A stretch of DNA of 64,000 nt from Heterodontus francisci (Eukaryota), in assembly GCF_036365525.1 (NCBI RefSeq), contig NC_090393.1, forward strand, positions 54,762,488 through 54,826,487. Reading direction: 5' to 3'. Position 1 is the first letter of the stretch, and the number at the start of each line of letters is the position of its first letter. The position numbers and the translations under genes are program-made. The notes under the pieces were generated by a model. That model did not search any database. It saw only the letters and a list, made by a program, of their open reading frames with translations, and was not told the origin of the DNA. Shown here in pieces: positions 640 through 43,050 of this stretch.

Positions 640-3160
640 CACACTTACACTTCCCAGCGTTCCAGCCTGTGGTCCTCCATTCAAGACAACATCTGCGCAG
701 CTTCAATCTGTTGAATCACATCCTAACCTGGACCTTAAATGGTCTTTTCCACTTTAAAATCCTTACTCTCTTTCATCCCGGCCAGTCCTCTGTATGACCA
801 TCATCTGCACTCCCTTAAGACGAAGGGAGGAAGACTTGAAAGTTTATGGTGGACAATTGGTTTAGCCATACATTGCCAGATTTCATTGGACCACAGAATG
901 CACTATCGGGTCTTGCTATCATCAGTCAAAACTGTTCATTATTCCACGATCGACCAGAATACATAGACATGTCGCATGGGGTCCAGGGTGTACAAGCTAG
1001 ATGGATAAAGAACTGGCTGGGCAACAGGAGACAGAGAGTAGCAGTGGAAGGGAGACGTGTGACCAGTGGTGTTCCACAGGGATCCGTGCTGGGACCACTG
1101 TTGTTTGTGATATACATAAATGATTTGGAGAAAAGTATAGGTGGTCTGATTAGCAAGTTTGCAGACGACACTAAGATTGGTGGAGTAGCAGATAGTGAAG
1201 GGGACTGTCAGAGAATACAGCAGAATATAGATAGATTGGAGAGTTGGGCAGAGAAATGGCAGATGGAGTTCAATCCAGGCAAATGCGAGGTGATGCATTT
1301 TGGAAGATCCAATTCAAGAGTGAACTATACAATAAATGAAAAAGTCCTGGGGAAAATTAATGTACAGAGAGATTTGGGTGTTCAGGTCCATTGTTCCCTG
1401 AAGGTGGCAACGCAGGTCAATAGAGTAGTCAAGAAGGCATACGGCATGCTTTCCTTCATCGGTCGCGGTATTGAGTGCAAGAGTTGGCAGGTCATGTTAC
1501 AGTTGTATAAGACTTTGGTTCGGCCACATTTGGAATACTGTGTGCAGTTCTGGTCACCACATTACCAAAAGGATGTAGATGCTTTGGAGAGGGTGCAGAG
1601 GAGGTTCACCATGATGTTGCCTGGTATGGAGGGCGCAGGCTATGAAGAGAGGTTGAGTAGATTAGGATTATTTTCATTAGAAAGACGGAGGTTGAGGGGG
1701 GACCTGATTGAGGTGCACAAAATCATGAGAGGTATAGACAGGGTGGATAGCAAGAAGCTTTTTCCCAGAGTGGGGGATTCAATTACTAGGGGTCACGAGT
1801 TCAAAGTGAGAGGGGAAAAGTTTAGGGGGGATATGCGTGGAAAGTTCTTTACACAGAGGGTGGTGGGTGCCTGGAACGCATTGCCAGCGGAGGTGGTAGA
1901 TGCGGGCACGATAGCATCTTTTAAGATGTATCTAGACAGATACATCAATGGGCAGGAAGCAAAGAGATACAGACCCTTAGAAAATAGGCAACAGGTATAG
2001 ATAGAGGATCTGGTTCGGCGCAGGCTTGGAGGGCCGAAGGGCCTGTTCCTGTGCTGTAATTTTCTTTGTTCTCTTTGTTCTTTATAACCCCTAGCTTCTG
2101 TTCTCAAATACAATCCATATTTTAAACCCATCTTCCCTGCAACCACCACCCTCACCTCCAACAATAGGTCACTGACTTTGGACATCCTTGCTGCTTCTAT
2201 CCATTTCCTTGGCCGACTTGGGCCAAATCTCCCCTGAAGTTCCCACCTGCCCTAGCTCTGAATTTGCATGTTAGTCTCCTATTCTGCTCCTGCCCTCTCC
2301 AAGTTCATCTTGTCCATGAAACCAACTGCTGTCCTGAAACTATTCAAATTAAACTGCTGACCACGCAGTCTACCTCATCACAAGCTCTCTTGTCCTCTCC
2401 ACTGTTTCTACTTTGTTATATTGCTTGTCCGACATTCAGTACTAGATGAGCGATAATTTCCTCCAACTAAATATTGGAAAGAGGGAAGCCATTGTCTTCC
2501 ATCCTCATCACAACCTCCAGTCCATCGCCACCAGCTCCTTCCCTGTCCCTGGCAACTGTCTGAGGCTGAACCAAACTGTTCGTAACCTTGGTGTTGTATT
2601 TGAGCCTTCCAGGTGCTTGTGAACACATAATCCACCACAAGACTGTCTAATCCCACCTCCATAACATTGCCCGACTTCACCCCTGCTTCAGCTCATCTGA
2701 AACTGAAACCCTTATCCATTCCTTTATTACCTCTACACATGACTATTCCTACGCTCATCTGGGCAGCTTGCCATCTACCACACTACCTAAGCTTGACCTC
2801 ATCCAAAATTCTGGTGCCCATATGCTACCTCGCACCAATTCCTTTTCACCAATCTCCCCTATGCTCACTGGCCTATATTCAACAATGCCTTCATTTTAAA
2901 ACTTTCATTGTTGTTTACAAATTTCTCCATGGCCTTGTCCCTTGCCAGTTCGGTAACTTTCTGCAATCATACAACCCTCTGAAATTTCTGAGCGCCTCCC
3001 ATTCTGGCCACTTACACTGACCCGATTTTAATTGCTCCATTATTGACAGCGGTGCCTTCAGGAGATGAGGTCTTAAGCTCTGGACTTCTCTCTCTAGGCA
3101 GCACTGCCTCTCTTCCTCGATCTCCTCATTGAAGGGGCACCTTAAAACCTATCTCTTTGA
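640..3160 (+). mobile_element. Old degenerate L2-type LINE fragment (interrupted by the CR1 insertion; ~640 bp deleted vs copy B)
   Basis: Paralogous to 31050-33070, where RT motifs are recognisable; typical 3' end CACCTTAAAACCTATCTCTTTGA. Confidence 0.65.
967..2084 (+). mobile_element. 5'-truncated CR1-clade LINE (RT C-terminus + 3' UTR + (TTCTTTG)n-like tail), young insertion
   Basis: Open frame with GVPQGSVLGPLLF, KFADDTK, RDLGV, RPHLEYCVQFWSP, RRLRGDLIE motifs. Absent at the paralogous site in copy B (CCAGAATGCACAGCTAACCCC at ~31355-31375). Confidence 0.93.
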
Positions 3161-5113
3161 TCAATCTTTTGGTCCCTGTTCGAACATCTTCTTTTGTTGT
3201 TCTCCATCAAAGTTTCTTAGACTATGTTCATATGAAACAGTTTGGGATGTTTTACTGCCCTAAAGTACTCTTAATGCAAGTGGTTGTTGTTTTAATAGTC
3301 AAGTCAAGTCAGTCATTCCGATTTCTGATACATTGCTTGTCTATTGATAAATCTAGTTTGCAGCTCATCCCTGCTTTGCTAAATCAATGAATAGGAGTAA
3401 AATATTATCCAAATTGGAGTTCTGGCAGCTTTCCCTCTGGGAAATTGATCTCTTGTGAAGCTCACTGGCTAAATATGTCTCACAATGAGCTGGATTTTAC
3501 ATACAGTTTGAAGGCGGGTTCTTTGGCGTGGTGGGCCGGAGAATCAGCACAAATTCATCTACCAAGGAACCTGATGCCTCATGCCGGATTCTGATTTCCT
3601 CGGAGGCGCCGAAGTTCCATGGTGGCACTGCCACCGCTCTGTGATGGGACCGTAATTTAAATATGTTAAATACAATTTGGCATTAATTATCATATAATTC
3701 ACTGCAATCCTACCAGTTGTTCGCAATCTTCTGCATGTCATGTGACACCCACGTGCCTTCACTTTCCTGTCTCTGAAAAGCTGGCAACACCGAGGTGAGA
3801 GACCTTGGTGCCTGCAAAGGTTTGGTAAATTATGCGTGGTTCTCCTGTTGAACTTGTTTTAACTTCGGACATTACCACTAAGGTCAATCTGCAGATGTGA
3901 TGGAAGCTTGGAATTCTGCAAGTAGATACTGTTGAGGAGGGGGAAGGGGGGAACTCTGCAAGTGGATACTGTTTGCGGGGAAGTGGGGAACTTTGCAAGT
4001 GGATCCATTGTTTGGGAGAGAGCAGAACACAGAAACTGTATCGGTTGTTTTTAATGGGGGTCCAGTGCAGGCAACTCAAATGATATTCTGATGGTCATGA
4101 TGGCTTGCACTTATTTAAAAGTTGTGAGGGCAGCATCAATCCATACCATAGAGCTCACGCTGGAACACTATGAAACTAGAAATTAACACAAATCTCTTCC
4201 CAAATAGGCGTAGTTGAACTTTGGAAGCAATCTGAAGTTACAAGGAGGATAGAGATGGGTATGATTCATCCTGTATTCCTGAATCCCCTTGCTGTGATGA
4301 CATCACTACTGGAAGCCGTCCCAAGAGACAGGTGTGGCTCACGAGGAAGCTCCTAGACATGAGCAGCAGAAGCCACCAAGGCGAAGAGGAGCCCAGATAT
4401 GCTGTGAGTCCAAAGCACTCGGATGACATACCTGCAAATGTCTGAGCACCCATGCCAGAGACAACTGTGAATGTCGAGAAAGGCTGCCACACACCTCTGT
4501 GCACTGTCGAATGATGATTGGCAACCAATGGGCTTTGGTGGTCACCCTATGGCCGTGGCTCTCAAAATTACTGTATCCCTGAACTCTTATGCCTCTGGAT
4601 GATTCCAGTGGTCCACCGATGACATGTGGGGGGGTCTCTCAATCCACAGTGCACCGCTGCATCAAGGAGGTGACTGATGCTCTGTTCAGGAGGGATGTCG
4701 ACTATGTCTGTGACAGGAGAGGCCCAGAGAGTCAGGCCAAGAGCCCCATTGGATTTGGGGCCATTGTAGGATTCGCACAGAGCCAAGGTATGATCGACTG
4801 CACACATCTGGCTATCAATGCTCCCATGGACTGATCAGCCACCTTCATAAACATAAAAGAGGTTCATTCAATCCATGTCCAACTAGTGTGTGACCACAGA
4901 AAGTGCTTTTTACAAGTGTGTGCCTGTTTCCCAGGCAGCTGCCATGACTTATACATAATTTGTCAGTCCCAGGTGTCAATACATTTCACTGCTCCCGGTC
5001 ACCTTCACGGGTGGATTCTTGAGGATATGGTTTTTGACACCAGTGAGGTACTCCACCGTTGATGCTGAAGAGTGTTACAATGAATGCCAAGGCTCCACCC
5101 GAGTGATCATTGC

Positions 5114-8100
5114 TGTCATGGTCCTGTAGTTTTTTTGGGGGGAATATGCAGTTTGCTTTAAGGCTTGTAAAGGATCAGTATTGCTTTAAGAACCAGCAAA
5201 CCTCAGGAGTTATTGGCAGGTGCATTTCCGTGACCTTAGAAACAGCCATTTGGAGACTATGATTCAAAGGGTGCATTCTCATTATCATAGATACAGCCAT
5301 TGAGAGTGAGTATGAAGTGATACACTTGTTACAATTCAATTTTGAACTGACTTTTTAGTTGAAGACAGATTGGTCCAGCAGAACACACACTCACAGAGGA
5401 CACACACAGACAGACAGCTGTGGTGTTTAGCCCTTGAAAAAGGCTCTTAATCATTTAAACTGAAGGAATAGGATTTTAGACTGTTAATTATTATCTCTCA
5501 AAATTCTAAAGAAGTCAAACCAAAACCGAGATCTCTGGTAATTTAAACTGAAAGGAAGGAAGTTAGACTGTGACAATCTTTTATCCCTCAAAAAACTCTT
5601 ATGTCAGATTGATTCTATTGAAAGTGTTCGCAAGTTGTGAATTGTTGAAATCCATCTCGGAAGAAGGAAAGCATCACCTGCTGCTGGAGTTAGACTACAG
5701 TCACTTCTACTGTGCAAGAACTTTTTTTCACATTGAACAGCTGTGAGGACTTCAAGCAACATTGGACTGTAAATTTGCAAGGACACTATTTTTTTCTATT
5801 TTAAATGTTGTTTATATCTTCATAGTGTTTAAGAATTTAGTTCTTCTAATTAAAGAGTTAATTTATTGATTTCAAGACACCTGGTTTGGTTAACCTCATT
5901 CAGGCGGTTAAAAGATGGTACAATTTGGTTGGTTCTTTCATTAATTTGGAAAGTTTTAAATGATATGTTAGGCCATCTGTGGAACGACGGGATTGAACTA
6001 ACAGTGCAATTTTCCTACCACAATCAGAATCATATATTTTGATTGGGGGCTTTGACTGGAGTGGTCAGTCATAAGATATTTATTGGGGACTCCTCTGTGG
6101 TTTGAATAACATATTAATTGGGGGGTCACTCAAGATTTGAATAACATATTAATTGGGGGCTCACAAGATTTGATTCACATATTAATTGTGTTTCTCATGA
6201 TTTGAATCATATCTTTATTGGGGGCTCACTTGCAGTTGAATCTTATTTAATTCGGTGGCTCATGTCTGGGATCAGAGTCAGACAAATTTGGAGGGTGGGC
6301 ATTTTAAATTACTCATCTCTGGGATAACATATTTAAATTGGGGTCTTGCATTTGGCATCAGGTTAATTGCTCTCGAGTCCGGGATTTTATCAATTGGAAA
6401 CTTGATTGTTGGAATCTAAATCTGACACCAAGTACAAAGAAATTAAAAGAACCAGGTCTCCTGAATAATAAGGTACAATCTATACCATTGTTATGGCATT
6501 AGTGGTTGCACAGAGATTTTGAGAAAGCAGAATGTTTCCCTGAGTGACTTGATAACTTTAACTAAGAACAAATTCAAAGAATTGGCAGCGAAATTGGGGT
6601 TGAAATTGAAATCAGGTGCCAAAAAAGCAGAGATAATTGACATAATAGCCGAACATCTGGAATTAGGAGAAGATGATGATGATAATACAGATGTAGGGCA
6701 ATACGAGGAACAAGAAGGTAGTAAGTCCGAGAGTGATGCAATGGTATTGGCTAGGCTTCAGTGAGAAACAAAAAAAACTTGAGGCAGAAAAAGAATTAAG
6801 AAATCTTGAACTGGAAAAAGAGGAAAGGGAAAAAGAAAAAGCAAGAGCATGAAGAAAACTTGAACTTCAGAGAGAGAGTGAAAGAGAAGACAGGGAATTT
6901 AAATTAAAAGAAATGGAACTATGACAAAATAGTAGTCTTGAATCCAGGGAAATTTCGGGTCAGGAAGAATCTGAGTTTAGATCAGGACCCAGTGAGCAGT
7001 TGTTCAAATTTATATAGGCTCTTCCTAAGTTCGAGGAAAGGGATGTAGAGGCATTTTTCATATCTTCTGAAAAAATAGCCAAACAGATGAAATGACCGGA
7101 AGAAAGCTGGATATTGCTCATACATGCAGGCTGGTAGGCAGAGCTCCTGAAGCTTATGCCATGCTTTCTGAAGAGGCTTCTGCAGATTATGAGATGGCAA
7201 AAAAGGTTATTCTCGCTGCGTATGAGTTAGTCCCTGAAGCTTACCATCAGAGGTTTAGGAACTTACAGAGATTGACTAGGCAGAAATATTTCGAATTTGA
7301 GAGGGTGAAGCAAATGAATTTTGACCATTGTATATGGGCATTCAAGATAGAAACCACATATGAGAACCTTCGAGAACTGATTCTCTTAGAAGAGTTTAAA
7401 AACTCCATTCCTCCGGTAGTGAGAACTCATATAGATAACCTGAAAGTTTTGAAAGCTAGGCAAGCAGCAGAGATTGCTGATGATTCAGAGCTTGTGAATA
7501 AGCCAACCTATTTTGTCCGTCAACCCCATAAACCCGAGAAGGATAGAAAGTGGAAGAGTGAAAGGAAGGCAAGAAGCCGGGGAGAAGAAGGAACAGCTGG
7601 GAATGCCCCAGCATCACCTCCTCAGGTCAGAAAGGATCGTGCTGGGGTAGAAGTGAGGTTCACAACCCAAGGTGTTATCATTGCAACAACAGGGGTCATC
7701 TTCGTTCAGACTACTGGAAATTGTGAGGAACTTGTTGGGGTACGCAAAGTTAGTGCAGAGGAAAAGACTCCCTGACTGAGAGTATAGAAGTCCAGGCTAT
7801 AGCTTTAATGACAGCTGTGAATGTGAAGTCAGATACTAAAACTAAGAGGAGTGTAGAGGTTAAGCATAAAATACCTGAGAGTTATAATGATTTTATGACA
7901 AAGGGGAGAGTAACTCTGTATCCTGTAAGTGAGGCAGGAAATACTATCATTAAACTCAGGGATACAGGAGCGACCCAAACACTCTTGCTGGGGAAATATA
8001 TGAGGTTTTCACCAGAGAGCATCTTGAATGCTAAAGTTTTAGTAAATGGAATTGGCGGGGTGTGTATACTCGTACCTTTGCATAAAGTATGCCTAGAGAG

Positions 8101-9240
8101 TGACTTAATAACTGGGATAGTAATTGTAGGTGTTGTCCTGAGTTTACTAGTAAAGGGAATTGATCTACCCCTAGGAAATTATTTGACTGGATCAAAAATA
8201 TCAGTTTCTCCTATAGTTACAGAGGAACCATGTGAAGTTAAGGAAATGGAGCAATTACAGGAGCAAGTTCCAGGAATATTTCCTGCATTACCCGAGCAAT
8301 GGCTAAACAGGATCCATTGTTGGAGTTAAAAGGGACACCACAAATAGATAATCAGGCATCTGAAACCTTATTTGGGGATTTAGATAATCCAAATCAGATG
8401 TTTAACAAATCGCCTATCATTGCAGCACAGGAAGCTGATCCAGAGATCTACCAAATAGTATAGACAGCTCTGTCAGAAACCGAGGTGAAAGGAGTTTTGG
8501 AAGGCTATTATATGGCAAATGGGGTTTTGTGGAGGAAATGGAGACCGCCTCACAGACATGCTGACAAAGACTGGACAGTTGTTGAACAGATAATGTACCA
8601 CCTAATGTACCAATCGCCAAGGATTATTAAGGTTAGCACACGACATTCCCTTTTCAGGACATAGGGGAATTCAGAAGACCAAATCACACATAAGCAAACA
8701 TTATTACTGGCCAGGTCTTACAAAGGTGTCAGACAATTTTGAAGGACATGCCACACCCCTCAAACGGTGGGGAAACCACACCTACTATTGAAAGTGTTCG
8801 CAAGTTGTTAATTGTTGAAATCCATCACGGAAGAAGGAAAGCATCACCTGCTACTGGAGTTAGACTATGGACTGTTCGACTGTGGAAGAACCTTTTTTTT
8901 GCATCGGACGTCTGTGAGGACTTCAAGCAACATTGGACTGAAAATTTGCAAGGACTCTATTTTTTTCTATTTTAAATGTTGTTTATACCTTCATAGTGTT
9001 TAATAATTTAGTTCTTCAAATTAAAGAGTTAATTTAAAGACACTTGGCTTGGTTAACCTCATGTGGGGGGTTAATAGTTGGTCCAATTTTTTGGGGTCTT
9101 TCTTTAATTTGGAAACTTTTAAATGCTATGTTAGGCAATCTGTGGAGCAACGGGATTGAAATTAACAGTGCGTTTCTGCTACCACAATCAGAATCGTATA
9201 TTTTGATTGGGGGTTTTGACTGGAGTGATCAGTCATAACA
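5114..9240 (+). mobile_element. Gmr1-like Ty3/Gypsy LTR retrotransposon, copy A (5' LTR 5114-6076; gag-PR-INT N-term; ~2.5 kb deletion; 3' half of 3' LTR 8785-9240)
   Basis: TGTCATG...CATAACA termini; 4-bp TSD TTGC/TCGC. SCAN-like gag (ELVPEAYHQRFRNL, LILLEEFKNSI), protease LRDTGATQTLL. Confidence 0.9.
6077..6390 (+). repeat. Tandem array of degenerate tRNA-Pro primer-binding-site units after the 5' LTR (copy A)
   Basis: ~35-nt units TATTAAT-TGGGGGCTCAC..GATTTGA-ATAACA/ATCACA; core resembles TGGGGGCTCGTCCGGGATTTGAA, the complement of the tRNA-Pro 3' end. Confidence 0.75.
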
Positions 9241-9939
9241 TCGCACAGGCCATTGGTATGCTGAAGATGCGCTTCCACTGCCTCAATAGATCTGCTGGAG
9301 CCCTACAGTATGCATCACACAGGTTTGCGTACATCATTGTAGTCTGCTGCGTTCAACACAACATCATTCTACAGAGCGGTATGGCCCTGCAAGATGAAGA
9401 AATATGGGAGCATGAGACATCCTCTGACAATGAGGACACAGAGGGCAAAACAAGGACAAGCACACATGGGTAATCAGAGAGCAGTGATGGATGCCAGACA
9501 TGATAAGCAGCGAGCAAGGAAGGCAAGGCACAGACTGATAATTGTGTATTTCCACAACCAACAATTTCAATAAAAATGTTTGCGAACAAAACTCACCATC
9601 GTGCATGCAGTCTCAAGTCCTGATCCTCCATTACGGTTATCTCTCCAGCATGACTGGCAGCAACAAACTGCGACATTGCCCATGTGACATCATACTTGCA
9701 ATTAAACATCATCCATATTGGCATGCCAAAGATGTCAGTGGTCACATTGGCAATAATGTCAGGGTTATGATGTAATTGAAAGACACATAATTAGTGCGTG
9801 GTGGAATGTCGCTCGCAGAAAATAAAGGCTGATGATTGGCAGGAAATCGCATTTAATTAAAGTAAACATGATTTTATTCTCGCATCCTGAATATCCATAT
9901 GTGTCAAGGTGTCTTTATAACACCTTTGTCATAAAGTCA

Positions 9940-29663: not shown

Positions 29664-31049
29664 ATAACTGCAGGTAATCTCACCATTAATGAATCTTAAC
29701 CAAGACAGCATTCCAATTAAACCCCTCAAACACAACATGAAGGAGAGTACAAGGGCTCTCTGGAAAATTCAGGGCTCACTATTTATTTACATAGATGTTG
29801 ATCAAATAAAATAGGTGCTTGGAATTTCCGTGGGATTTATCCCACACGTGATCGGTGGAGATGCGAGAGAAACGGCGTAAACGGCGGACGCAGCGCCGCA
29901 TGTTTAAAACATAAACGTTTCTATTAATTCGGGCACTAGCAAAAAGTCAAGTCGGGAAAATCGGGCTGTGAAAAATAACGTGCGACAAACAGGAGTTTCG
30001 GCTAGACTCTGTCTGGACGGTGTTGTTCCATGTAAGCAGTCCTCATCATATTGCGTTCCGAAAACGTGCTCGCGTTGATCTGATCGCCTCCTTCGAAAAA
30101 GCTTCAAATCTCTTGTTCGGTATATCAGCAGAATGGCCTGAATAACGGCGAGGAGTAGCAGTTCGAACAGAGGGAGAAAACATCATCCTCAGCTAGAGAG
30201 AACATCCGCCTGTCTCTGCAGCTCCGCCGTTGAGGAGCAGTTTATTGTTCTTATACTGAGATTGGTCTTCCTGTTTGAGAAACCAGGATCTCAGGTATAA
30301 GTGTTACAATCACAACTCCCTTGATTGCTGACCAATGACACTCAAGTATTGCAGAGGTTCAAGCAATCCATTGAGAATTGCAGATCATTTGCTCTTGTTC
30401 TCTTTGATCTTGGTGAGGGTGGCCGAAAATGCTTTGGAATTGTGCTTACACTCATTCAGCTCTTGACAGCTGCAGTCCGTAAACGTCCCGGAAAAGCGAC
30501 AAGTTACCGGAACTGGAAGACCGCCACAGGAACTAAGAAGTCTTCTTGCCATTTCACTATTGGCATCGGCTGGACGAAAATTAGTTGGTTACTCGAAAAA
30601 TAAAGCATTTACAAGCAATTGGGTGTGAGAAGTAAAAACAAATACATTAAACGTTAGGGCTATATGTGGAAACTACAGGGCCCGGTAAAATATAGCCCGA
30701 GATACTTGCAAAAGTAGAATTGAATGTTTATCTGAAAGTTATAATCAAACTAATGAGACGTGATATTCAAACACAGTGTCAGGTACAGAACACTGCCATA
30801 AGTGTTAGATTTACTGTTCATTCCTTGCAGCAAAATTACACTAATGTTCCATTTCTGTATTTCAAAATAGCCTAAGGGACCAGAAGATTAAGTTTACATC
30901 AAAACAGCTTTAAGGCAAAATCATTAAATGCAAGCACTAGAATATACTCCGAATATCTCAAAGCTTGAAGGATCGGCCCAAACAAAAATTATTTCATGGA
31001 ATAATTTAAATAGAAAAATTTCCCACAAGTAATGTGTAACCACACTTAC

Positions 31050-33070
31050 ACTTCCCAGCGTTCTTGCCTATGGTCCTCCATTCAAGATAACATCTCTGCA
31101 GCTTCGATCTGCTTAATCTCATCCTGACCTGTACCTTAAATGGTCTTTTCCACTTTAAAATCCTTACTCTCTTTCATCGCGGCCAATCCTCTGTATGACC
31201 ATCATCTGCACTCCCTTAAGACGAAGGGAGGAAGACTTGAAAGTTTATGGTGGACAATTGGTTTCGCCATTCATTGCCAGTTTTCATTGGACCACAGAAT
31301 GCACTATCGGGTCTTGTTATCGTCAGTCAAAACTGGTCATTATTCAACGATCGACCAGAATGCACAGCTAACCCCCTAGCTTCTGTTCTCAAATACAATC
31401 CATATTTTAAACCCATCTCCCCTGAAACCACCACCCTCACCTCCAACAATAAGTCACTGACTTTGGACATCCTTGCTGTTTCTCTCCCTTTCCTTGGCCG
31501 ACTTGGGCCAAATTTCCCCTGAAGTTACAACCTGCCCTAGCTCTGAACTTGCATCTTAGTCTCCTATTCTGCTCGTGCCCTCTCCAAGTTCATCTTGTCC
31601 ATGAAGCCAACTGCTGTCCTGAAAGTATTCCAATTAAACTGCTGACCACGCAGTATACCTTCCTGGCCCCGATGTTGTTTGATATTGTGAGTGGTTCTCT
31701 CTCCTCAGGTACTTTCCCCATCTTCAAACCTATCGTCAGCATCCGTCTTCTAAAACAGTCACCCTTACCTTCTGTTCTTGCAAACTGCTGACCCATCTTC
31801 AACCACCCTACCTCTTTGAACTCCTCAAGTGTGTTGTCACCTCCCACATCCATGGCCATCTTTCCAGCAACTCGACTTTTGAGTTGCTCCAGACAGATTT
31901 CTGCCCCAGCCACAGTAAACACCCTCATCAAAATCACAAATGGCATCATTTGTCATTGTGACCATGGTAAACTATTCCTGTTCATCTTTCTCGACCAGTC
32001 TTCAGCCTTTGGCACACTTAACTACGCCATCTTTAACTACCCCGCCTCCAACACCTTTCCATCGCTATCCAGCTGGGTGGGGCTGCCCTCACCTAGTTCT
32101 ATTCTTATCCATCCTGCCGTAGCCAGAGAATAACCTGCAATTGCTCTCTTCTCACTTCCACACATTACCTCTGGCGTACCCCACTGATCTATCCTTGACT
32201 CCCTCCTATTTCTCATCTACTTACTATCCGTTGGGGACTTCATCTGGAAAGACCATGTCAGGCGCCACATGAACACTGATAACATCCAGGTCTGCCTCAT
32301 CACCAGCTCTCTTGTCCTCTCCACTGTCTCTGCTTTGTTATATTGCTTGTCCGACATTTAGTACTAGATGAGCGATGATTTCCTCCAACTAAATATTGGA
32401 AAGAGGGAAGCCATTGTCTTCCATCCTCATCATAAACTCCAGTCCATCGCCACCAACTCCTTCCCTGTCCCTGGCAACTGTCTGAGGCTGAACTAAACTG
32501 TTCGTAACCTTGGTGTTGTATTTGAGCCTTCCAGGTGCTAGTGAACACATAATCCGTCACAAAACTGTCTAATCCCACCTCCATAACATTGCCCGACTTC
32601 ACCCCTGCTTCAGGTCATCTGAAACTGAAACCCTTATCCATTCCTTTATTACCTCTACACATGACTATTCCTACGCTCATCTGGGCAGCTTGCCATCTAC
32701 CACACTACCTAAGCTTGACCTCATCCAAAATTCTGGTGCCCATATGCTACCTCACACCAATTCCTTATCACCCATCTCTCCTATGCTCATTGGCCTACAT
32801 TCAACAATGCCTTAATTTGAAAATTTTCAAATTGCTCCATGGCCTCGCCCCTTGCTATTTCAGTAATTTTCTGCAATCATACAACCCTCTGAAATTTCTG
32901 AGCGCCTCCCGTTCTGGCCACTTACACTGACCCGATTTTAATTGCTCCATTATTGACAGCGGTGCCTTCAGGAGATGAGGTCTTAAGCTCTGGACTTCTC
33001 TCTCTAGACAGCACTGCCTCTCTTCCTCTATCTCCTCCTTGAAGGGGCACCTTAAACCCTATCTCTTTGA
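31050..33070 (+). mobile_element. Old L2-type LINE fragment
   Basis: Degenerate RT motifs TLIKITNGII...FIFLDQSSAFGTLNYAI, GVP..SILDSLLFLIY; typical 3' end. Confidence 0.7.
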
Positions 33071-33398
33071 TCAATCTTTTGGTCCCTGTTCTAACATCTT
33101 CTTTTGTGGTTCTCCATAAAATTTTGTTTGACGATGTTCATATGAAGCCGCTTGGGATATTTTACTGCCTTAAAGTACTCTATAAATGCAAGTGGTTGTT
33201 ATTTTAATAGTAAAGTCAAGTCAGTCATTGCGATTTCTAATACATTGCTTGTCTATTGATAAATCTAGTTTGCAGCTCATCCCTGCGTTGCTAAATCAAT
33301 GAATGGGAGGAGAATATTATCCAAATTGGAGTTCTGGCATCTTTCCCTTTGGCAAATTGATCTCATGTGAAGCTCACAGGCTAAATATGTCACAAAGT

Positions 33399-35022
33399 GA
33401 GCTGGACTTTGCATTCGGTTTGAAGGCGGGTTCTTTGGCGAGGTGGGCCGGAGAATCCGCGCAGAACCGTTTACCAAGGAACCTGATGCCTCATGCTGGG
33501 TTCTGATTTCCTCTGAGGTGCCGAAGTTCCCTGGTGGCACCGCTGCTGCTCTGTGATGGGACTGTAATTTAAATATGTTCAATACAACTTTGCATTGATT
33601 ATAATGTAATTCACTGCAATCTCACCAGCTGTTAGCCATATTCTGCATGACATGTGGCACCTTCTTTCCTGTCTCTGAAAAGCTGGCACCACTGAGGTGA
33701 GAGACCTTGGTGCCTGCAAAGGTTTGGTAAGTTGTGCGTTGTTGTCCTGTTGAACTTGTTTCAACTTCGGACATTACCACTAAGGTCAATCTGCAGATGT
33801 GAGGGAAGTTTGGAATTCTGCAAGTAGATACTGTTGGGGAGGGGGAAGGGGGGAACTCTGCAAGTGGATACTGTTTGCGGGGATGTGAGGAGCTCTGCAA
33901 GTGGATACATCGTTTGAGGGGGAGCAGAACTCAGAAACTGTATAGGTTGTTTTTAATGGGGGTCCAGTGCAGGCGACTCAAATGGTATTCTGATGGTCAT
34001 GATGGCTTGCACTTATTTAAAAGTTTTGAGGGCAACATCAATCCATACCATAGAGCTCATGCTGGAACACTTTGAAACTAGAGATTAACACAAATATCTT
34101 CCCAGATATGGAAAGCTGCCAGAATTCCAAAGTTGAACTTTGGAAGCAATCTGAAGTTGCAAGGAGGATAGAGTTGGGTGTGATTCACCTGACATTCCTG
34201 AATCCCCTTGCTGTGATGAGGCATCGCTACTGGAAGCGGACCCAAGAGACAGGTGTGGCTCAAGAGGAAACTCCTAGACATGAGCAGTGGAAGTCACCAA
34301 GGCGAAGGGGAGCCCAGATATGCTGTGAGTCCAAAGCACTCGGATGACATACCTGCAGATGTCTGAGCACCCGTGCCAAAGTCAACTGCAAATGTCAAGA
34401 AAGGCTGCCACACACCTCTGTGCACTGCTGAATGATGATTTGTAACCAATGGATTTTGGTGGTCACCCTATGGCCGTGGCTCTCAAAATTACTGTAACCT
34501 GAAACTCTGGATCATTCCAGGGGTCCACTAATGGCATGTGCGGGGTCTCTCAATCCACAGTGCACCGCTGCATCAAGGAGATGACTGATGCTCTGTTCAG
34601 GAGGGATGTCGAATATGTTTGTGACAGGACAGGCCCAGCAAGCCGGGCCAAGAGGGCCATTGGATTTGGGGCCATTGCAGGATTCGCACAGGTCCAAGGT
34701 TTGATCGAATGCACACATCTGGCCATCAACGCTCCCACGGACTGATCAGCCACCTTCATAAACATAAAGGAGTATCATTCAATCCATGTCCAATTAGTGT
34801 GTGACCACAGAAAGCGCTTTTTACAAGTGTGTGCTTGTTTCAGCCAGCTGCCATGACTTCTACATACTTTGTCAGTCCCAGGTGTCAGTACTTTTCACTG
34901 CTCCCGCTCACCCTCACGGGTGGATTCTTGAGGATATGGTTTCTGACATCAGTAAGGTACTCCACCAAAGATGCTGAAGAGTGCTTCAAAGCCTTCCAAG
35001 GCTCCTCCCGAGTGACCATCCC
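33399..35022 (+). mobile_element. Harbinger transposon 5' part (copy B), up to the Gypsy insertion site
   Basis: GVSQSTVHRCIKEMTDAL, QGLIECTHLAINAP; paralogous to 3487-5113. Confidence 0.85.
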
Positions 35023-35992
35023 TGTCATGGTCCTGCAGTTTTCGATTTTTGGGAATATGCAGTTTGCCTATAAGGCTTGCAAAGGATCAGTTTTGCTTTA
35101 AGAGCCAGCAAGCCTCAGGAGTTATCGGCTGCTGCATTTTCGTTTGGAGACTGCGATTCAAATGGTGCTTTCTCGTTACCATAGATACAGCCATTGGGAG
35201 TTAGTATTAAGTGATACATTTGTTACACTTCAATTTTGAACTGGCTTTTTAGTTGAAGACAGTTAATTCTAACTGAACACATACAGAGAGGACACACACA
35301 GACACACAGCTCTGGTGTTTAGCCCTTGAAAAAGAGCTCTCAATCATTTAAACTGAAGGAATAGGATTTTAGACTGCTAATTATTATCTCTCAAAATTCT
35401 AAAAAAAAGTCAAACCAAAATTGTGATCTCTGGTAATTTAAACTGAAGGATGGGAAGTTAGACTGTGACAATCTTTTACCCTCAGAAAACTCTAAAGTCG
35501 GATTAATTCTATTGAAAGCGCTCGCAAGTTGTTAATTGGTGAAATCCAGCACGGAAGAAGGAAAGCATCACCTACTGCTGGAATAGACTATGGACTGTTC
35601 TACTGTGGAAGAACCTCTTTTCACATAGCACAGCTGTGAGGACTTCATGCAACATTCTGTGAGGACTTCAAGCAACATTGGACTGTAAATTTGCAAGGAC
35701 TCTAATTTTTTCTATTTTAAATGTTGTTTATATCTTCATAGTGTTTAAGAATTTAGTTCTTCCAGTTAAAGAGTTAATTTATTGATTTAAAGACACCTGG
35801 TTTGGTTTGCCTCATTCGGGGGGTTGATAGATGGTACAATTTGGCTGCTTCTTTCTTTAATTTGGAAAGTTTTAAATGATATGTTAGGCAATCCGTGGAG
35901 TGACGGGATTGAACTAACAATGCGTTTTTCCTACTACAATCAGAATCGTATATTTTGATTGGGGGCTTTGACTGGACCAGTCGGTGATAACA

Positions 35993-36350
35993 TATTTATT
36001 GGAAGCTCATCCGCGATTTGAATAACATAGTAATCCGGGGCTCGCTCAAGATTTGAATCACATATTTATTGGGGGCTCATCCCAGGATTTGAATAACATA
36101 GTAATTGGGGGCTCACTCAAGATTTGAATCAGATATTAATTGGTTTTCTTGGGATTTGAATCATATCTTAATTGAGGGCTTGCTCACAGTTGAATCTTAT
36201 TTAATTCGGTGGCTCACATCTGGGATCAGAGTCAGACAAATTTGGAGGGCTCGCATTTGGAATCATAGTAATTACTCATCTCTGGGATAACATATTTAAA
36301 TTGGGGTCTTGTGTTTGGCATCAGATTAATTGCTCTTGAGTCCGGGATCT
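35993..36350 (+). repeat. Tandem array of degenerate tRNA-Pro PBS units after the 5' LTR (copy B)
   Basis: E.g. 36000-36022 TGGAAGCTCATCCGCGATTTGAA and 36070-36093 TGGGGGCTCATCCCAGGATTTGAA vs TGGGGGCTCGTCCGGGATTTGAA; about 4 clear units and 5-7 decayed ones. Confidence 0.78.
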
Positions 36351-39300
36351 TATCAATTGGAAACTTGATTGTTGGGATCCAAATCTGACACCAAGTACAA
36401 AGAAATTAAAAGAACCAGGTCTCTTGTATAATAAGGTACAATCTATACCATTGTTATGGTTGTAACAGCGTTTTTGGGAAAACAGAATGTTTCCCTGAGT
36501 GACTTGATAACTTTAGCTAAGAACAAACTAAAAGAATTGGCAGCGAAATTGGGGTTGAAATTGAAATCAGGTGCCAAGAAAGGAGAAATAATTGACATAA
36601 TAGCCGAACATCTGGAATTAGTAGAAGAAGATGATGATGATAATGCAGCTGAAGGGCAATACGATGAACAACAAGGTAGTAGGTCCGAGAGTGATGCAGT
36701 GAAATTGGCTAGGATTCAGTTAGAAACAAAAAAAACTTGTGGCAGAAAAAGAATTAAGAAAACCTGAACTGGAAAAAGAGGAAAGGGAAAAAGAAAAAGC
36801 AATAGCATTAAGAAAATTTGAACTTCAGAGAGAGAGTGAAAGAGAAGAGAGGGAATTTAAATTAAAAGAAATGGAAGTAAGACAAAAGAATAGTCTTGAA
36901 TCCAGGGAAAATTCAGGTCAGGAAGAATCTGAATTTAGATCAGGACCCAGTGAGAAGGTGTTCAAATTTATATAGGCTCTTCCTAAGTTCGAGGAAAGGG
37001 ATGTCGAGGAATTTTTCATATCTTTTGAAAAAATAGCCAAACAGATGAAATGGCCGAAAGAAAGCTGGACATTGCTCATGCAATGCAGGCTGGTAGGCAG
37101 AGCTCATGAAGCTTATGCCATGCTTTCTGAAGAGGCTTCTGCAGATTATGAGATGGCAAAAAAGGCTAGTCTCGCTGCGTATGAGTTGGTCCCTGAAGCT
37201 TACCATCAGAAGTTTGGGAACTTACAGAAATTGAATTTAGAATTTGAGAGGGTGAAGCAAATGAATTTTGACCATTGCATACGGGCATTAACGATATAAA
37301 CCACATATGAGAGCCTTGGAGAATTGATTCTCTTAGAAGAGTTTAAAAACTCCATTCCTTCAGTCGTGAGAACTCATATAGATGACCTGAAAGTTTTGAA
37401 AGCTAGGCAAGCAGCAGAGATTGCTGATGATTCTGAGCTGGTGAATAAGCCAACCGATTTTGTCCATCACCCCCATAAACCCGAGAAGGATCGAAAGTGG
37501 GAGAGTGAAAGAAAGGCAAGTAGACGGGGACAAGAAGGAACAGCTGGGAATGCCCCAGGATCACCTCCTCAGGTCAGAAAGGAAGGTGCTGATGGTAGAA
37601 GTGAGGTTCACAATATGTTATAATTGCAACAACACAGGTCATCTTCGTTCAGAGAGGTGGAAATTGCGAGGTAAACCCATAGGAATTGTTGGGGGACGCA
37701 AAGTTAGTGCAGAGGAAAAGACTCCCTGACTGAGAGTATAGAAGACCAGGCTACAGCTTTAGTGACAGCTGTGAATGTGAAACCAGATACGAAAACTAAG
37801 AGGAATGTAGATGCTAAGAATAAAATATCCGAGAGTTATAATGATTTTTGTCAAAGGGGAGAGTAACTCCATATCCGTAAGTGAGGCAGGAAATCCTACC
37901 ATTATACTCAGGGATACAAGAGCGACCCAAACACTCTTGCTGGGGAAAGATGTGAGGTTTTCACCAGAGAGCGCCTCGAATACTAAAGTTTCAATAAATG
38001 GAATTGGCGGGGTGTGTATACCGTGTATAAAGTATGCCTAGAGAGTGACTTAATAACTGGGGTAGAAACTGTAGGTGTTATCCAGAGTTTACTAGTGAAA
38101 GGAATTGATTTACTCTTAGGAAATTATTTGGCTGGATCAAAAATATCAGTTTCTCCTATAGATATAGAAGAACTAAGTGAAATTAAGGAAATAGAGCATT
38201 TACAGGAGCGAGTTCCAGGAATATTTCCTGCGTGTGTAGTTACCCGAGCAATGGCTAAAGAGGATCCATTGTTGCAGGTAAAAGGGCACAACAAATAGAT
38301 AATCAGACATCTGAAACCTTAATTGAGGATTTAGATAATCCAAATTAGATGCTTAACAGATCATCTATCATTGCAGCACAGCAAGCTGATCCAGAGATCT
38401 ACCAAATAGCACAGACGGCTCTGTCAGAAGCTGAGGTGAAAGGAGTTCTGAAAGGCTATTATATGGCCAACGGGGTTTTGTGGAGGAAATGGAGACCGCC
38501 TCATAGACCTGCTAACGAAGACTGGACAGTTGTTGAACAGATAGTGGTACCATCTAAATATCGTCAAGGATTATTAAGGTTAACACACGACATTCCCTTT
38601 TCAGGACATAGTGGAATTCAGAAGCCCAAATCACACATAAGCAAACATTATTACTGGCCAGGTTTAACAAAGGATGTGAGACAATTTTGTAAGGCATGCC
38701 ACACCTGTCAAACGGTGGGAAAACCACACCTACCATAAAAGCAGGGGATGAAGTATTAGTGTTGTTGCCATTACAGGGAGAACTATTAAAAGCACGGTTC
38801 AGTGGCCCAGAGAGTGATCAAAAGAGTGGGTAAGGTAGATTACTTGATTGACACCCCTGATCGCTGGAAGAAGAACCAGTTGTGTCACATTAATATGCTC
38901 AAACAATATTACCGCAGGGAGGGGGATAAGCCAATACAGGTATGTCAGGTAATCAGAACTGTGGAGAAGGAAAAGGATAATGAGGATGAGGCAGAATTAA
39001 GCCCAGAAAATTCTCAGATTGAACCTCCAACTGTCAGATTAACGAACACAGAATGGTTAGGAAAATGAGACAAAACATGAGACAAATGAGACAAATGAGG
39101 CAAAACAACGAGAAGCCCTAACCAGGGTTTTCACAATGTTTAAAAGAGTTTGTAGGGAAAAGCTGAGATGTACAACCTTAGCCACACATGGTGTGGATAT
39201 AGGGGCACTGTTCCTTTAAAACAACATCCTTACCACCAGACAAACAGCCCCAAGTGAAAGCAGAGATCCAGTACATGCTGGAAAACAATTTGATTGAACC

Positions 39301-40367
39301 TAGTCAGAGTAGCTGGAGTTCCCCAGTATTCTAGAACGTAAACCTGATGGGGCAACACGATTTTGTATAGATTATAGGAAAGTTAATGCTGTAACAAAGG
39401 TAGACTCCTCCCCAATTCCACGTTTAGATGACTGCATCAACAGAGTAGGCAGCGCTCAGTTTCGTACCAAGATTGACTTGTTAAAGGGGTACTGGCAAGT
39501 TCCTTTGACTCCTCGAGCCAAAGAGATATCAGCTTTTATAACACCTGACGGTCTTTATCAGTGCCGGGTGATGCCATTCGGGCTAAAAAAATGCCCCAGC
39601 CACTTTTCAAAGATTAATGAATCAGGTAGTAGCCAGGGTTCCCAACTGTGTAGTATATCTCAATGATGTACCAATATATAGTAACATTTGGCGAGAACAC
39701 TTAAGCCAATTAAAACTTTTGTTTAAAAGGTTATGAGCTGCAGACTTAGTGGTAAATTTGGGAAAAAGTGAATTTGGAAAGGCAAGTGTAACTAACCTTG
39801 GACACATTGTGGGGCAAGGTCAGGCATTACCAAAAATGACAAAGGTGCAAGCCTTAATGGAGTTCTGTATCCCTAAATCTAAACGGGAAATGATGAGATT
39901 TTTAGGGATGTGTGGGTTTTATGGGAAATTTGTATGAAACTTTAGTACTGTGGCTGCTCCATTTACCGACTTGTTACAAAAAAGAAAAACAAAGTGGTAT
40001 GGTCAGATGAATGACAGGCAGCTTTTGAAAAGCTAAAGGCAATCCTAATTAATGAACCAGTGTTGGCTGCTCCAAATTTCACTAAACACTTTAAATTAGC
40101 AATCGATGCTAGTGACCTGGGGGTTGGTGACGTCCTACTGCAAAATGATGAATCCGGCATAGAGAAACCTGTAGGGTATTTTTCTGGAAAACTAAATTGT
40201 CATCAGAAAAATTATTCCAATGTGGGGAAAGAAACATTGGGACTCTTACTAGCTCTCCAACATTTTGAGGTAAATGTCCACCAGGATTATAAGGAGATAT
40301 TAACATACACTGACCATGACCCATTAACATTTGTGGAAAAGTTTAAGAATTGAAATACTAGAATCTT

Positions 40368-40462
40368 CAATAAAAACAAGAAATGCTGGAAATACTCAAC
40401 AGGTCTGGCAGCATCTGTGGAGAGAGAAGCAGAGTTAACGTTTCAGGTCTGTGACCCTTCTT
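40368..40462 (-). mobile_element. 95-bp Penelope terminal fragment inserted in Gypsy RNase H, 7-bp TSD GAATCTT
   Basis: TSD at 40361-40367 and 40463-40469; removing the insert restores N-T-R-I-F-R-W-S-L-L-L-Q. Confidence 0.88.
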
Positions 40463-41404
40463 GAATCTTTAGATGGAGTCTGTTGTTACAGCCCTATCAT
40501 CTGAGGGTTGTACACATTTCAGGGAAAAATAATGTTGTCGCCAATGTTTTGTCGCTGATTTAACTATGTGGGTGGTGATGAGAATGCTGTAAATTATTAG
40601 TAGAGTATATCTGTAAATTCGGGGGAAAGAATTGTTTTCATTTTTTCAATTTGTATTTTTTTTTACCCATTGTAATGAAACACATTTCAGGAATGGCGTT
40701 TCATTCCACTAGTGGCAGAGGTGTCATGGTCCTGTAGTTTATTTTCAGGAATATGTGGTTTGCCTTTAAGTTTGGCAAAGCATCAGCATTGCTTTAGGAA
40801 CCAGCAAGCCTCAGGAGTTATAGGAAGGGGCATTTTCGTTGCCTTAAAAACAGCCATTTGGAGACTGCAATTGAAAGGATGCATTCTTGTTACCATAGAT
40901 ACGGCCACTTGGAGTAAATATTAAGCGATACATTTGTTACAATTCAATTTTGAACTGGCCTTTTAGTTGAAGACAGTTTGTTCTAACAGAACAGAGACAC
41001 AGAGGACACACACAGACAGACAGCTGTGATGTTTAGCCCTTGAAAAAGAGCTCTCAACCATTTAAACTGAAGGAATAGGATTTTAGACTGTCAATTATTA
41101 TCTCTCAAAATTTTTTAAAAGTCAAGCCAAAAGAGAGAGCACTGGTAATTTAAACTGAAGGAAGGGAAGTTAGACTGTGACAATCTTTTATCCCTCTATA
41201 AACTTTAAAGTCAGATTGATTCTATTCAAAGTGTTCGTAAGTTGCTAATTGCTGAAATCCATCACGGAAGAAGGAAAGCATCACCGACTGCTGGAGTTAG
41301 ATTATGGACTGTTCAACTGTGGAAGAACTTTTTTTGACATCAGACGGCTTTGAGGACTTCAAACAACATGCTGTGAAGACTTCACAGTCACAGTGCCTAA
41401 ACAA

Positions 41405-43050
41405 CACCACGTCCCTTCCTCTCTCTCCTCCTTTAAGTGACACCAGAAAACCGACCTCTGATGAATCATTAGGTTCCTGTTCTTCTTCTGTGGTGCGCCA
41501 TTACATTTTGTTAGATTATGTTCATATGAAGCAGCTTGGGTTGTTTTACTATCTTAAAGTACTCTGTAAATTCAAGAGGTTGTTATTTTAGTAGTAGTTC
41601 CGTAGTTGTGATTTCTGATACATTGCTTGCCAATCTATAAATCTAGTTCTCAGCTCATCTTCGTTTTGCTAACTCAATGAATATGACGAGAATATAGACT
41701 AAATGGGAGTGTTGACAGCTATCTCCCTTGAAAATTCATCTCATGTGAAGCTCACAGGCTCAATGTGCCACACAGTGAGCTGGATTTTGTGCTTGCTTTA
41801 AAGGCGGGTTCTTTGGCGGCTTGGGGGTGGCGGCGGAGATACAGCACTGGGTCGACGCCACAGAACCCAATGCCGTAATGTCAAGTTCCGATTTTCTCGG
41901 AGGTGGCGAAGTTCTGTGGCAGCACCTCCACCACTCTGTGATGGCACTATACTTTAAATATGTTAAATTCCGTTTTGCATTACTTGGAATGTAATTTATT
42001 GCAATCCTACCTGCCACTCGCAATCTTCTGCATGAGATGCGACACTCGCATGTCTTCATTTTCCCGTCTTTGAAAAGCTGGCATCACCGAGACTGGAGTC
42101 CTCCGTGTTTGCGAACGTTAGGTAAGTTATTCGATGTTATCCTGTTGAATTTGTTTTAATATTGAACATTGCCACCAAGGTCAATCTGCAGATATGAGTG
42201 GAGGTTGAAATTCTGCAAGTGGATTCTTTTGGCGGAGGAAGGGGAACTTTCCAAGTGGATAGAGCTGTGGGCAGGAACTGGGGGAATTCTGCAATTGGAT
42301 ACTGTTGGGGGGGGGGGGGGGTTGGGGGGAAGGGCGATCTCTGCAAGTGGATACTGTTGTGGATGGGGGGGGCGGGAGAGGGAAACTCTGCAAGTGGAAA
42401 CACTGGGCAGAACTCAGAAACTGTATGGGTTGCATTTTTGGGGGTCCAATGCAAGCAACTCAAATGGCATTACTATGGTCATGATGGCTTGCACTTATTT
42501 TAATGTTGTGAGGGTAACATCAAACCATACCATAGAGCTCATGCTGGAATGCTGCAGGACCAGAAATTCAGACAAATCTCTGCTCAGATAAGTGTACTTC
42601 ACCTTTTTATGGAATCTGAAGTTACAAGGAGGGTACAGATGGGTATGATTCACCTTATTTTCCTGGATCCCTTGCTCTGATGAGGCATCTTCACTGGAGG
42701 CAGGCCCGAGAGGCAGGTATGACTCAAGAAGAAGTTCCTAGATGTGAGCAGCATCAGCCACCAAGGCAAAGAGGAGCCCAGATATGCCAAGATGACATGT
42801 CTGCAGATGTCAGAGTGCCAGTGCCAGAGATGACTGTGGATGGCCAGAGATCCTGTCACACACCTCTGTGCATTGCTGAATAATGATTTGCAATCAAGGG
42901 GTTTTGGTGGGCACCCTATGCCTGTGGTCCTCAAAATTACTGTGGCCCTAAACTGTTATACTTCAGGATCATTCCAGGGATCCACCAGTGACATGTGTGG
43001 GGTCTCTCAATCTGCAGTGCACTGCTGCATCTTCAGTAGGGATGGCGATT
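41405..43050. repeat. Third, more diverged paralogue (copy C) of the L2-end/Harbinger-start segment (3100-4700; 33010-34610)
   Basis: Shared strings such as TATGTTCATATGAA.CAG.TTGGG, GCAGCTCATC, TGTGAAGCTCACAGGCT and AAGGCGGGTTCTTTGGCG in the same order. Confidence 0.85.

What the first reader, a model, noticed from the sequence alone, without database searches (positions are those of the whole stretch)
35993..36350. Tandem array of 'LTR end + tRNA-Pro PBS' units behind a Gypsy 5' LTR (also at 6077-6390)
Seen: after the LTR terminus ...ATAACA, a ~35-nt unit repeats: AT-rich linker, then TGGGGGCTC..GATTTGA, then ATAACA/ATCACA. Units 1-2 repeat as 3-4 (alternating TATTTAT/TAGTAAT linkers), and units decay with distance from the LTR. 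Established: TGGGGGCTCGTCCGGGAT is the 18-nt tRNA-Pro PBS, and vertebrate tRNA-Pro continues as the complement TTGAA. The units therefore match ~23 nt of tRNA, beyond the m1A58 position where plus-strand copying normally stops. Inference: the element adds a new PBS unit next to the LTR in some replication cycles (read-through of the primer tRNA plus misaligned strand transfer), giving a polarised array that records past priming events and may offer redundant priming sites. LTR elements normally have one PBS.
Basis: partly seen in the sequence, partly recalled or inferred. Interest (0 to 1): 0.75.

Follow-up and report, generated by a model that had tools for sequence, protein, structure and literature searches.

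The report
Tandem primer-site array in retrotransposon
A dead but abundant jumping gene carries 10-11 tandem, increasingly decayed copies of the site where a host tRNA starts its copying; the array likely grew by duplicating existing copies, and probably only the first copy was ever used.

Summary
The array is real. Behind the 5' LTR of a decayed Gmr1-like Ty3/gypsy element lie 11 (35993-36348) or 10 (6077-6385) units of spacer, tRNA-Pro primer-binding site (PBS), often TTGA, and an LTR-end hexamer. Match to tRNA-Pro far exceeds shuffles and falls with distance from the LTR. The two window arrays are one insertion duplicated with its flanks. Reads from three organisms fix the LTR end at 35992 and show a high-copy family that shares distal units and varies near the LTR.

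TTGA is the known primer over-extension sequence. The 1-2/3-4 repeat carries a spacer change private to this copy, so it arose or was homogenised in the chromosome. Inner units share changes and unit 2 had already decayed at insertion. Most likely an aberrant strand transfer seeded the repeat, duplications and deletions shaped it, and only unit 1 primed. A half-PBS remnant inside U5 hints that priming once shifted.

Two related Gmr1-like families also repeat PBS parts. The scan noted similar arrays before in other genomes; ten literature searches found none described. New variant, moderate interest.

The parts
35023..35992 (+). 5' LTR of copy B (970 nt, TGTCAT...ATAACA)
   Evidence: Self-BLAST; loose ends of reads pile at 35992 in 4 of 4 runs
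35945..35967 (+). Remnant inside U5 that resembles hexamer + spacer + first 8 nt of the PBS; also at 6029 and 9193
   Evidence: Local score 33, 29 and 25 in the three LTR ends; maximum 26 in 4908 random windows and 28 in 5000 shuffles, so the 3' LTR copy alone is not above the null; noticed by eye first
35993..36027 (+). Unit 1: 7-nt spacer, PBS-Pro (36000-36017, decayed), TTGA, ATAACA; the inferred priming site
   Evidence: 18 of 22 matches; no mismatch shared with unit 1 of copy A; reads of other copies carry the tRNA-matching letter at two listed sites
36028..36133 (+). Units 2-4; units 3-4 repeat units 1-2 (two-unit duplication private to copy B)
   Evidence: TRF period 71; alignment; spacer letter at 36030 and 36101 absent from copy A and from other copies' reads
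36134..36348 (+). Units 5-11, more decayed, shared with copy A and with many family copies
   Evidence: Distal array about 91% identical between A and B; read depth equal to the leader's
36435..37623 (+). Broken gag with SCAN-type capsid domain
   Evidence: Pfam SCAN E 0.0024 here and 4e-7 in copy A; 46% identity to the gag of relative L002
38349..39068 (+). Integrase zinc-binding domain and C-terminal domain, adjoining; the catalytic core is missing; lies before RT
   Evidence: Pfam Integrase_H2C2 5e-20 and Integrase_p58_C 7e-6
39313..40560 (+). Broken RT and RNase H
   Evidence: Pfam RVT_1 2.5e-13 and RT_RNaseH_2 2.6e-25; tblastn
40722..41384 (+). 3' LTR of copy B, truncated, preceded by a purine-rich tract
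5114..6076 (+). 5' LTR of copy A
6077..6385 (+). Array of copy A, 10 units (unit 2 repeated once)
8785..9240 (+). 3' half of the 3' LTR of copy A, ending ATAACA with no array unit; followed by a 4-nt target-site copy (9241-9244)
4862..9422 (+). Harbinger-type transposase remnant split by the insertion (pieces 4862-5113 and 9243-9422); same junction in copy B at 35022
   Evidence: Pfam DDE_Tnp_4 on both pieces, profile positions 28-88 and 122-158

Best explanation
This is a tandem array of the LTR-end, spacer and tRNA-Pro primer-binding module in the leader of a Gmr1-like retrotransposon family, likely seeded by a faulty second strand transfer and then likely reshaped by duplication and loss of existing units, with probably only the first unit priming. 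Shown: the unit make-up, the LTR end, the gradient, variation between copies, and one length change after integration. [quoted passage not shown] Unit 1 would be recopied from the tRNA in each cycle while inner units drift, which gives the polarity without new capture each time. Transfer onto an inner unit would delete proximal units; template switching or chromosomal slippage would add them, often two at a time. The U5 remnant may mark one old shift of priming to an inner unit.
For: Unit borders fit the known strong-stop ends at tRNA positions 59 and 55 (PMC8599865; PMC13191261). Unit 1 has no tRNA mismatch shared by A and B, while unit 2 has 4 shared ones. Inner units resemble each other as much as or more than the tRNA: g-e 0.44 and g-i 0.43 against 0.18 for g-tRNA; f-h 0.38 against 0.31 and 0.34; mean likeness at distance two 0.37, at distance one 0.28. 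B's two-unit repeat shares a private letter. Read depth rises from 15-20 over units 1-4 to 81-101 over distal units in the raw-read run, with the same trend in the 3 contig runs; joints link the LTR end to inner units (skips of 73 and 147 nt; LTR joined to 36238 or 36274 in organism B) and one goes back. The 3' LTR of A contains no unit.
Against: The odd/even unit test is not significant (rank 14 of 126). Only one insertion could be read in full; no listed contig spans the array. The low depth near the LTR is partly an artefact, since B's own decay in unit 1 can clip reads, and joints at 80% likeness can come from misplaced repeats. The seed event needs a join with 0-2 nt of A/T homology, whereas the RT clamp needs a C or G (PMC3035444, abstract); documented HIV cases jump downstream and delete rather than duplicate. 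Two contigs show a unit-5-like site next to the LTR end (table 5c), which a refreshed unit 1 does not predict. B's two-unit copies differ at about 8 of 71 positions, as much as the LTR pairs, so divergence alone does not date that duplication.
Confidence: 0.6

Rival explanations
1. One reading: each unit is a fresh tRNA copy added by read-through plus misaligned transfer, so the array logs priming events and offers spare priming sites.
For: Units end at known stop positions; gradient rho -0.78; LTR-side variation in reads; two junction types (with and without TTGA) land on the same hexamer; U5 remnant.
Against: Derived changes shared between inner units; B's two-unit repeat is private; TTGA is common in single-PBS viruses, 6 of 24; unit 2 already decayed at insertion; no inner LTR ends among the 24 loose-end rows shown, 1023 not shown.
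Confidence: 0.15
2. An ordinary minisatellite that happened to start at the PBS by polymerase slippage, with no link to strand transfer; the polarity comes only from the refresh of, or selection on, unit 1.
For: A and B differ in unit number although they are one insertion; the proximal array diverged more than the background (83% against 91-93%); this window holds other minisatellites in repeats; relative L010 has a 21-nt repeat starting at the PBS end.
Against: The unit's borders match the LTR end and the tRNA stop sites to within a base; relative L002/L003 also repeats spacer plus PBS with a 35-nt period; most listed joints across the array start at or near the LTR end.
Confidence: 0.18
3. 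The inner units are kept by selection, for example to load or hold tRNA-Pro, to fold the leader, or as decoys for tRNA fragments or PBS-binding repressors.
For: Distal units are as common in reads as the leader itself; PBS-Pro is a target of host repressors and tRNA fragments (PMC10602909 and PMC12853362, search listings only).
Against: Inner units are heavily decayed and carry indels; folding is no better than shuffles (z -1.24 for 35930-36400; -1.86 to +1.44 for four short stretches); most gag-bearing reads appear to lack this leader (depth about 100 against 300-440).
Confidence: 0.07

Closest known systems
Gmr1-like Ty3/gypsy LTR retrotransposons
   Same: SCAN-type capsid followed by protease, integrase, then RT and RNase H (10.1101/2025.03.03.638093, passages). 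Relatives L002/L003 and L010/L045 have the same gag, a PBS-Pro and a long (5-nt) spacer.
   Different: 10-11 tandem PBS modules and a 7-nt spacer. No PBS array came up in the searches; the original Gmr1 papers and Repbase/Dfam could not be consulted.
Primer over-extension sequence / second strong-stop at tRNA position 54-55 (lentiviruses, spumaviruses)
   Same: Genome complementarity to the tRNA continues past the 18-nt PBS to position 55 (PMC13191261; PMC8599865, passages).
   Different: Described for a single PBS and for tRNA-Lys3; human tRNA-Pro gets pseudouridine at 54 (PMC6380271, passages), so the same stop is untested for tRNA-Pro.
HIV-1 MAL-type partial PBS duplication
   Same: A 23-nt insertion downstream of the PBS from a partial PBS duplication, kept in 14% of isolates (PMC3185550, passages).
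   Different: One partial copy, described as a partial PBS duplication; no multi-unit gradient.
Aberrant second-strand transfer in defective HIV-1 proviruses
   Same: RT copies tRNA past m1A58 and jumps; 44 cases with tRNA inserts (PMC12657518, passages).
   Different: Jumps go downstream and give deletions in dead proviruses, not a heritable array.
Two tRNA-binding sites of Drosophila gypsy
   Same: An LTR element with more than one primer-tRNA site, of which only the 5' one is needed (PMC1635307, abstract and one passage).
   Different: The sites lie at opposite ends of the genome and pair with different parts of the tRNA; not tandem.

Membership tests
Gmr1-like Ty3/gypsy retrotransposon | Integrase lies before RT and RNase H | tested here: met
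   Integrase_H2C2 and p58_C at 38349-39065 precede RVT_1 at 39313 and RNase H at 40015; the integrase core is deleted
Gmr1-like Ty3/gypsy retrotransposon | SCAN-like capsid domain in gag | tested here: met
   Pfam SCAN E 4.1e-7 in copy A, above the curated cut-off; weak in copy B
Gmr1-like Ty3/gypsy retrotransposon | LTRs with TG...CA ends, target-site duplication, PBS and polypurine tract | tested here: met
   970-nt LTR; TTGC/TCGC flanks in copy A; purine tract before 40722; read ends at 35992
Gmr1-like Ty3/gypsy retrotransposon | RT groups with Gmr1 in a tree | not tested
   No named reference RT sequences were at hand; only pairwise matches to unnamed relatives
tRNA-Pro primer-binding site | 18-nt complement of the tRNA-Pro 3' end next to the 5' LTR | tested here: met
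   Decayed in both copies (14 and 13 of 18) with no shared mismatch; reference. The host's own tRNA-Pro genes were not available.
tRNA-Pro primer-binding site | Spacer of 0-3 nt after the LTR's CA (recalled rule; 2-3 nt in 7 LTR-like loci) | tested here: not met
   7 nt here; 5 nt in both Gmr1-like relatives
Primer over-extension sequence | Complement to tRNA positions 58-55 directly after the PBS | tested here: met
   TTGA follows units 1-5 of B and 1-4 of A and is visible by eye in the next unit; absent in three distal units
   Shared derived changes among units; private two-unit repeat; the parity test alone is not significant
   None among the 24 loose-end rows shown, 1023 not shown; unit-1 depth about 20 against about 790 in U5; the U5 remnant hints at one old case
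Minisatellite / higher-order tandem repeat | Copy number changes in host DNA | tested here: met
   10 against 11 units in two duplicates of one insertion

The most novel reading that the evidence does not exclude
The leader is a polarised tape written by reverse transcription: faulty second strand transfers add LTR-end plus primer modules at the LTR side, priming now and then moves to an inner module and pulls the outer one into the LTR (the U5 remnant), so the LTR boundary itself walks and the array orders the family's lineages the way spacers order CRISPR arrays.
Probability: 0.2. Interest if true: 0.7.

Novelty: new variant of a known kind. Interest (0 to 1): 0.45.

Why it matters
LTR elements are taken to have one PBS right behind the LTR. 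A family that spread widely with about nine tandem modules and a 7-nt spacer shows that the leader tolerates them. If the seed is a strand-transfer error, genomes hold a natural record of a step studied almost only in HIV, and shared distal units give a marker for ordering subfamilies. It also matters for annotation tools that expect one PBS within a few bases of the LTR. No new enzyme or host function is implied.

Tried and rejected
No whole genome is held, so genomic copies could not be collected. Rfam and ARAGORN found no RNA gene in the window. Folding gave no structure beyond shuffles; I dropped the idea that the PBS is held in a selected hairpin. The odd/even test of a two-unit higher-order repeat was not significant (14 of 126). 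A loose pattern for LTR end plus long spacer plus half PBS in viral contigs gave 120 loci, of which 1 was a true PBS, already known as L010. Protein searches with a gag piece gave nothing at near length and 2 SCAN-bearing proteins at longer length; they did not name the family. Of 24 viral and 17 genome-contig loci with the exact PBS, none had a second copy reaching 13 of 18 or 11 of the first 13 letters within -300/+400 nt; 3 viral and 1 genome-contig locus had a 10-of-13 chance-level site. No RNA holder was listed; the run guessed as RNA says nothing on expression. Rejected: that the two window arrays are independent evidence (same junction and flanks), and that TTGA proves read-through per unit. 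The scan's own notes had no look-alike of this sequence.

Full report
Observation. The arrays are present as described. Copy B (35993-36348) has 11 units and copy A (6077-6385) has 10, counted by eye. A proximal unit is a 7-nt AT-rich spacer, an 18-nt PBS-like stretch, TTGA and a hexamer like ATAACA; periods run from 24 to 36 nt. The human tRNA-Pro complement continues TTGAA after the 18-mer (PMC12217144, passage; PMC5159642, passage). All 5 plus-strand sites with at least 16 of 22 matches in the window fall in the arrays, and 7 of 9 with at least 15; one minus-strand site reaches 16. Non-overlapping local hits number 8 (B) and 6 (A) against shuffle means of 0.58 and 0.49, maxima 4 and 2 of 300. 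No site is within 3 mismatches of the 18-mer, so no intact PBS is left. The host's own tRNA genes were not available.

The element. Copy B runs LTR (35023-35992), array, gag with SCAN domain, protease-like motif (by eye, no Pfam hit), integrase zinc-binding and C-terminal domains with the core missing, RT, RNase H, purine tract and a truncated 3' LTR (40722-41384). Integrase before RT with a SCAN capsid is the Gmr1-like order (10.1101/2025.03.03.638093, passages). All frames are broken. The host looks like a cartilaginous fish from its other repeats; that is recalled, not tested.

One insertion, twice. A and B share the 5' junction inside a Harbinger-type transposase and colinear flanks at 91-96% identity. 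Their internal parts are 91-93% identical, their 5' LTRs 90%, and LTR pairs within an element 87-89%. The 3' LTR of A ends in ATAACA followed by TCGC, which matches TTGC (A) and TCCC (B) on the left: a decayed 4-nt target-site copy. This fixes the LTR end and shows that the LTR held no array unit. The window therefore gives one insertion, and the different unit numbers (A: a b b c...i; B: a b a b c...i) mean that at least one length change happened in the chromosome.

The family. Four runs from three organisms were laid on 35560-36640 at 80% likeness (runs, 4 of 20 listed). Loose ends pile at 35992 in 4 of 4 runs (276 reads; 315, 27 and 7 contigs) with low agreement, as expected at an LTR end of a high-copy family. 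In the raw-read run the depth is about 790 in U5, 15-20 over units 1-4, 45-71 over units 5-7, 81-101 over the distal units, 75-111 in the leader and 300-440 in gag. The three contig runs show the same rise. Listed joints skip 73, 78-79 and 147 nt, join the LTR end to 36085, 36238 or 36274, and one goes back from 36174 to 36085; 83 joints are not shown. So copies share distal units and differ near the LTR. Limits: no listed piece spans the array, B's own decay can clip reads in unit 1, bins are not independent, and joints at this likeness may be misplaced repeats.

Which unit primed. Unit 1 of A and of B differ from the tRNA at 5 and 4 of 22 sites, with no change in common, and reads of other copies carry the tRNA-matching letter at two listed sites (25 of 25 and 22 of 23). 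Unit 2 has four changes common to A2, B2 and B4, and the distal units are about 91% identical between A and B while far from the tRNA. So at insertion unit 1 most likely matched the primer and the rest had already drifted. Likeness to the tRNA falls along the nine unit types (rho -0.78, p 0.013), unevenly. No pile of loose ends at an inner hexamer is among the 24 rows shown (1023 not shown), and unit-1 depth is a few percent of U5 depth, so LTRs that end at an inner unit are rare at most. Against a simple picture: two contigs show a unit-5-like site directly behind the LTR end (table 5c).

How it grew. The spacer letter shared by B units 2 and 4 (36030, 36101) is absent from A and from 18 of 18 and 16 of 16 raw reads, and nearly all contig depth. 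The conspicuous 1-2/3-4 repeat thus arose, or was homogenised, after A and B split. Its two halves differ at about 8 of 71 sites, which does not by itself date it. Inner units share derived features: f and h share a deletion and a TTGG end, e, g and i lack TTGA, b and d share changes after the CTC motif. Mean likeness is higher at distance two (0.37) than one (0.28), but the odd/even test ranks only 14 of 126. Growth by copying existing units is therefore better supported than one fresh capture per unit.

The TTGA extension. Retroviral genomes often pair with the primer to position 55: the primer over-extension sequence, matching a second stop before position 54 (PMC13191261, passage; PMC8599865, passages). 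m1A58 is present in tRNA-Pro (PMC11251516, passages). Among 24 viral loci with an exact PBS-Pro, 6 extend by 3 or more tRNA-matching bases. One ancestral 22-nt site explains TTGA in all proximal units. [quoted passage not shown] Read-through with a faulty second transfer is documented in HIV-1 proviruses, but as deletions (PMC12657518, passages), and the two-base RT clamp needs a C or G (PMC3035444, abstract), which these junctions lack. The seed mechanism is inference.

A remnant in U5. All three complete LTR ends hold, about 40 nt before the PBS, a stretch like hexamer, spacer and first 8 nt of the PBS (35945-35967; scores 33, 29, 25; null maxima 26 and 28). It was noticed by eye first. It would be expected if priming once moved to an inner unit and the outer one became part of the LTR; a chance duplication or an accessory tRNA contact is not excluded.

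Relatives. A scan of metagenome contigs for tandem PBS-Pro found 2 loci on one contig: tandem copies of a Gmr1-like element with open frames in the stretch fetched, a 5-nt spacer, a perfect PBS, then 35 nt on a second spacer with 13 nt of PBS and a third 10-of-13 remnant. A close relative in viral contigs (L010/L045; RT 91% identical to L002, integrase after protease) has a 21-nt repeat of 2.5 copies starting at the PBS end. The first was found by asking for the pattern, and the two are one subclade. The other 23 viral loci and 17 genome-contig loci with the exact PBS had no clear second copy.

Literature and earlier notes. Ten searches found no tandem array of LTR-end plus PBS modules. Nearest are the partial PBS duplication of HIV-1 MAL (PMC3185550, passages) and the two distant tRNA sites of Drosophila gypsy (PMC1635307, abstract and one passage). 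The library lacks most subscription papers, including the original Gmr1 descriptions (recalled); Repbase, Dfam and supplements were not seen. The scan noted similar repeated primer modules in other genomes; these are unchecked leads, one of which pointed me to the MAL paper.

Verdict. A real, family-wide, polarised array of primer modules in a Gmr1-like retrotransposon. Most likely seeded by a strand-transfer error, shaped by duplication and loss, with one working site (0.6). Per-unit capture with spare priming 0.15, plain minisatellite 0.18, selected function 0.07. New variant of a known kind; interest 0.45.

Noticed in passing
window 1-8788 and 30405-38736: About 8.8 kb duplicated 30 kb apart at 91-96% identity; copy A has an extra RT-bearing LINE-like insertion at about 967-2087. 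An older, 75% identical copy of the flank follows the truncated 3' LTR at 41397-43031.
   Followed up: partly
window 35993-35999; L002 1496-1500; L010 696-700: Spacer of 7 nt (5 nt in two relatives) between the LTR's CA and the PBS, longer than the 2-3 nt in other PBS-Pro elements; how the integrase end is trimmed is unexplained.
   Followed up: partly
window 8784-8785 and 38736: Internal deletions of copies A and B begin at nearly the same base after the integrase zinc-binding domain: A jumps into the middle of the 3' LTR, B to the integrase C-terminus.
   Followed up: no
window 6084-6105 and 36000-36021: Unit 1 took 9 changes in 44 positions after insertion, only 2 of CpG type, more than the roughly 6% per copy expected; proximal arrays of A and B are 83% identical against 91-93% around them.
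   Followed up: partly
window 3910-4004, 33812-33921, 42281-42398: A G-rich 37- to 52-nt minisatellite inside each copy of the flank upstream of the Harbinger-type transposase remnant.
   Followed up: no
window about 40369-40463: A short interspersed repeat with a target-site-like copy interrupts the RNase H region of copy B; related copies at 15903, 27490, 28642 and 29545.
   Followed up: no
L002, L003, L045: Both Gmr1-like relatives lie as head-to-tail tandem elements sharing one LTR (RNase H, LTR, PBS, gag), and the L002/L003 LTRs differ by internal repeat blocks.
   Followed up: no
L001 398-420, L015, L013, L018-L020: Single-PBS retroviruses primed by tRNA-Pro often continue the tRNA complement by 3-5 nt, so an over-extension sequence is not limited to tRNA-Lys users.
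   Followed up: partly
L030, L031, L033, L034, L035, L036, L042, L044: Contigs filed in bacterial metagenome-assembled genomes look like eukaryotic LTR-PBS junctions, probably host contamination.
   Followed up: no
window 35634-35679: A 23-nt tandem duplication inside the LTR of copy B; reads show further copy-number variation at this spot.
   Followed up: no
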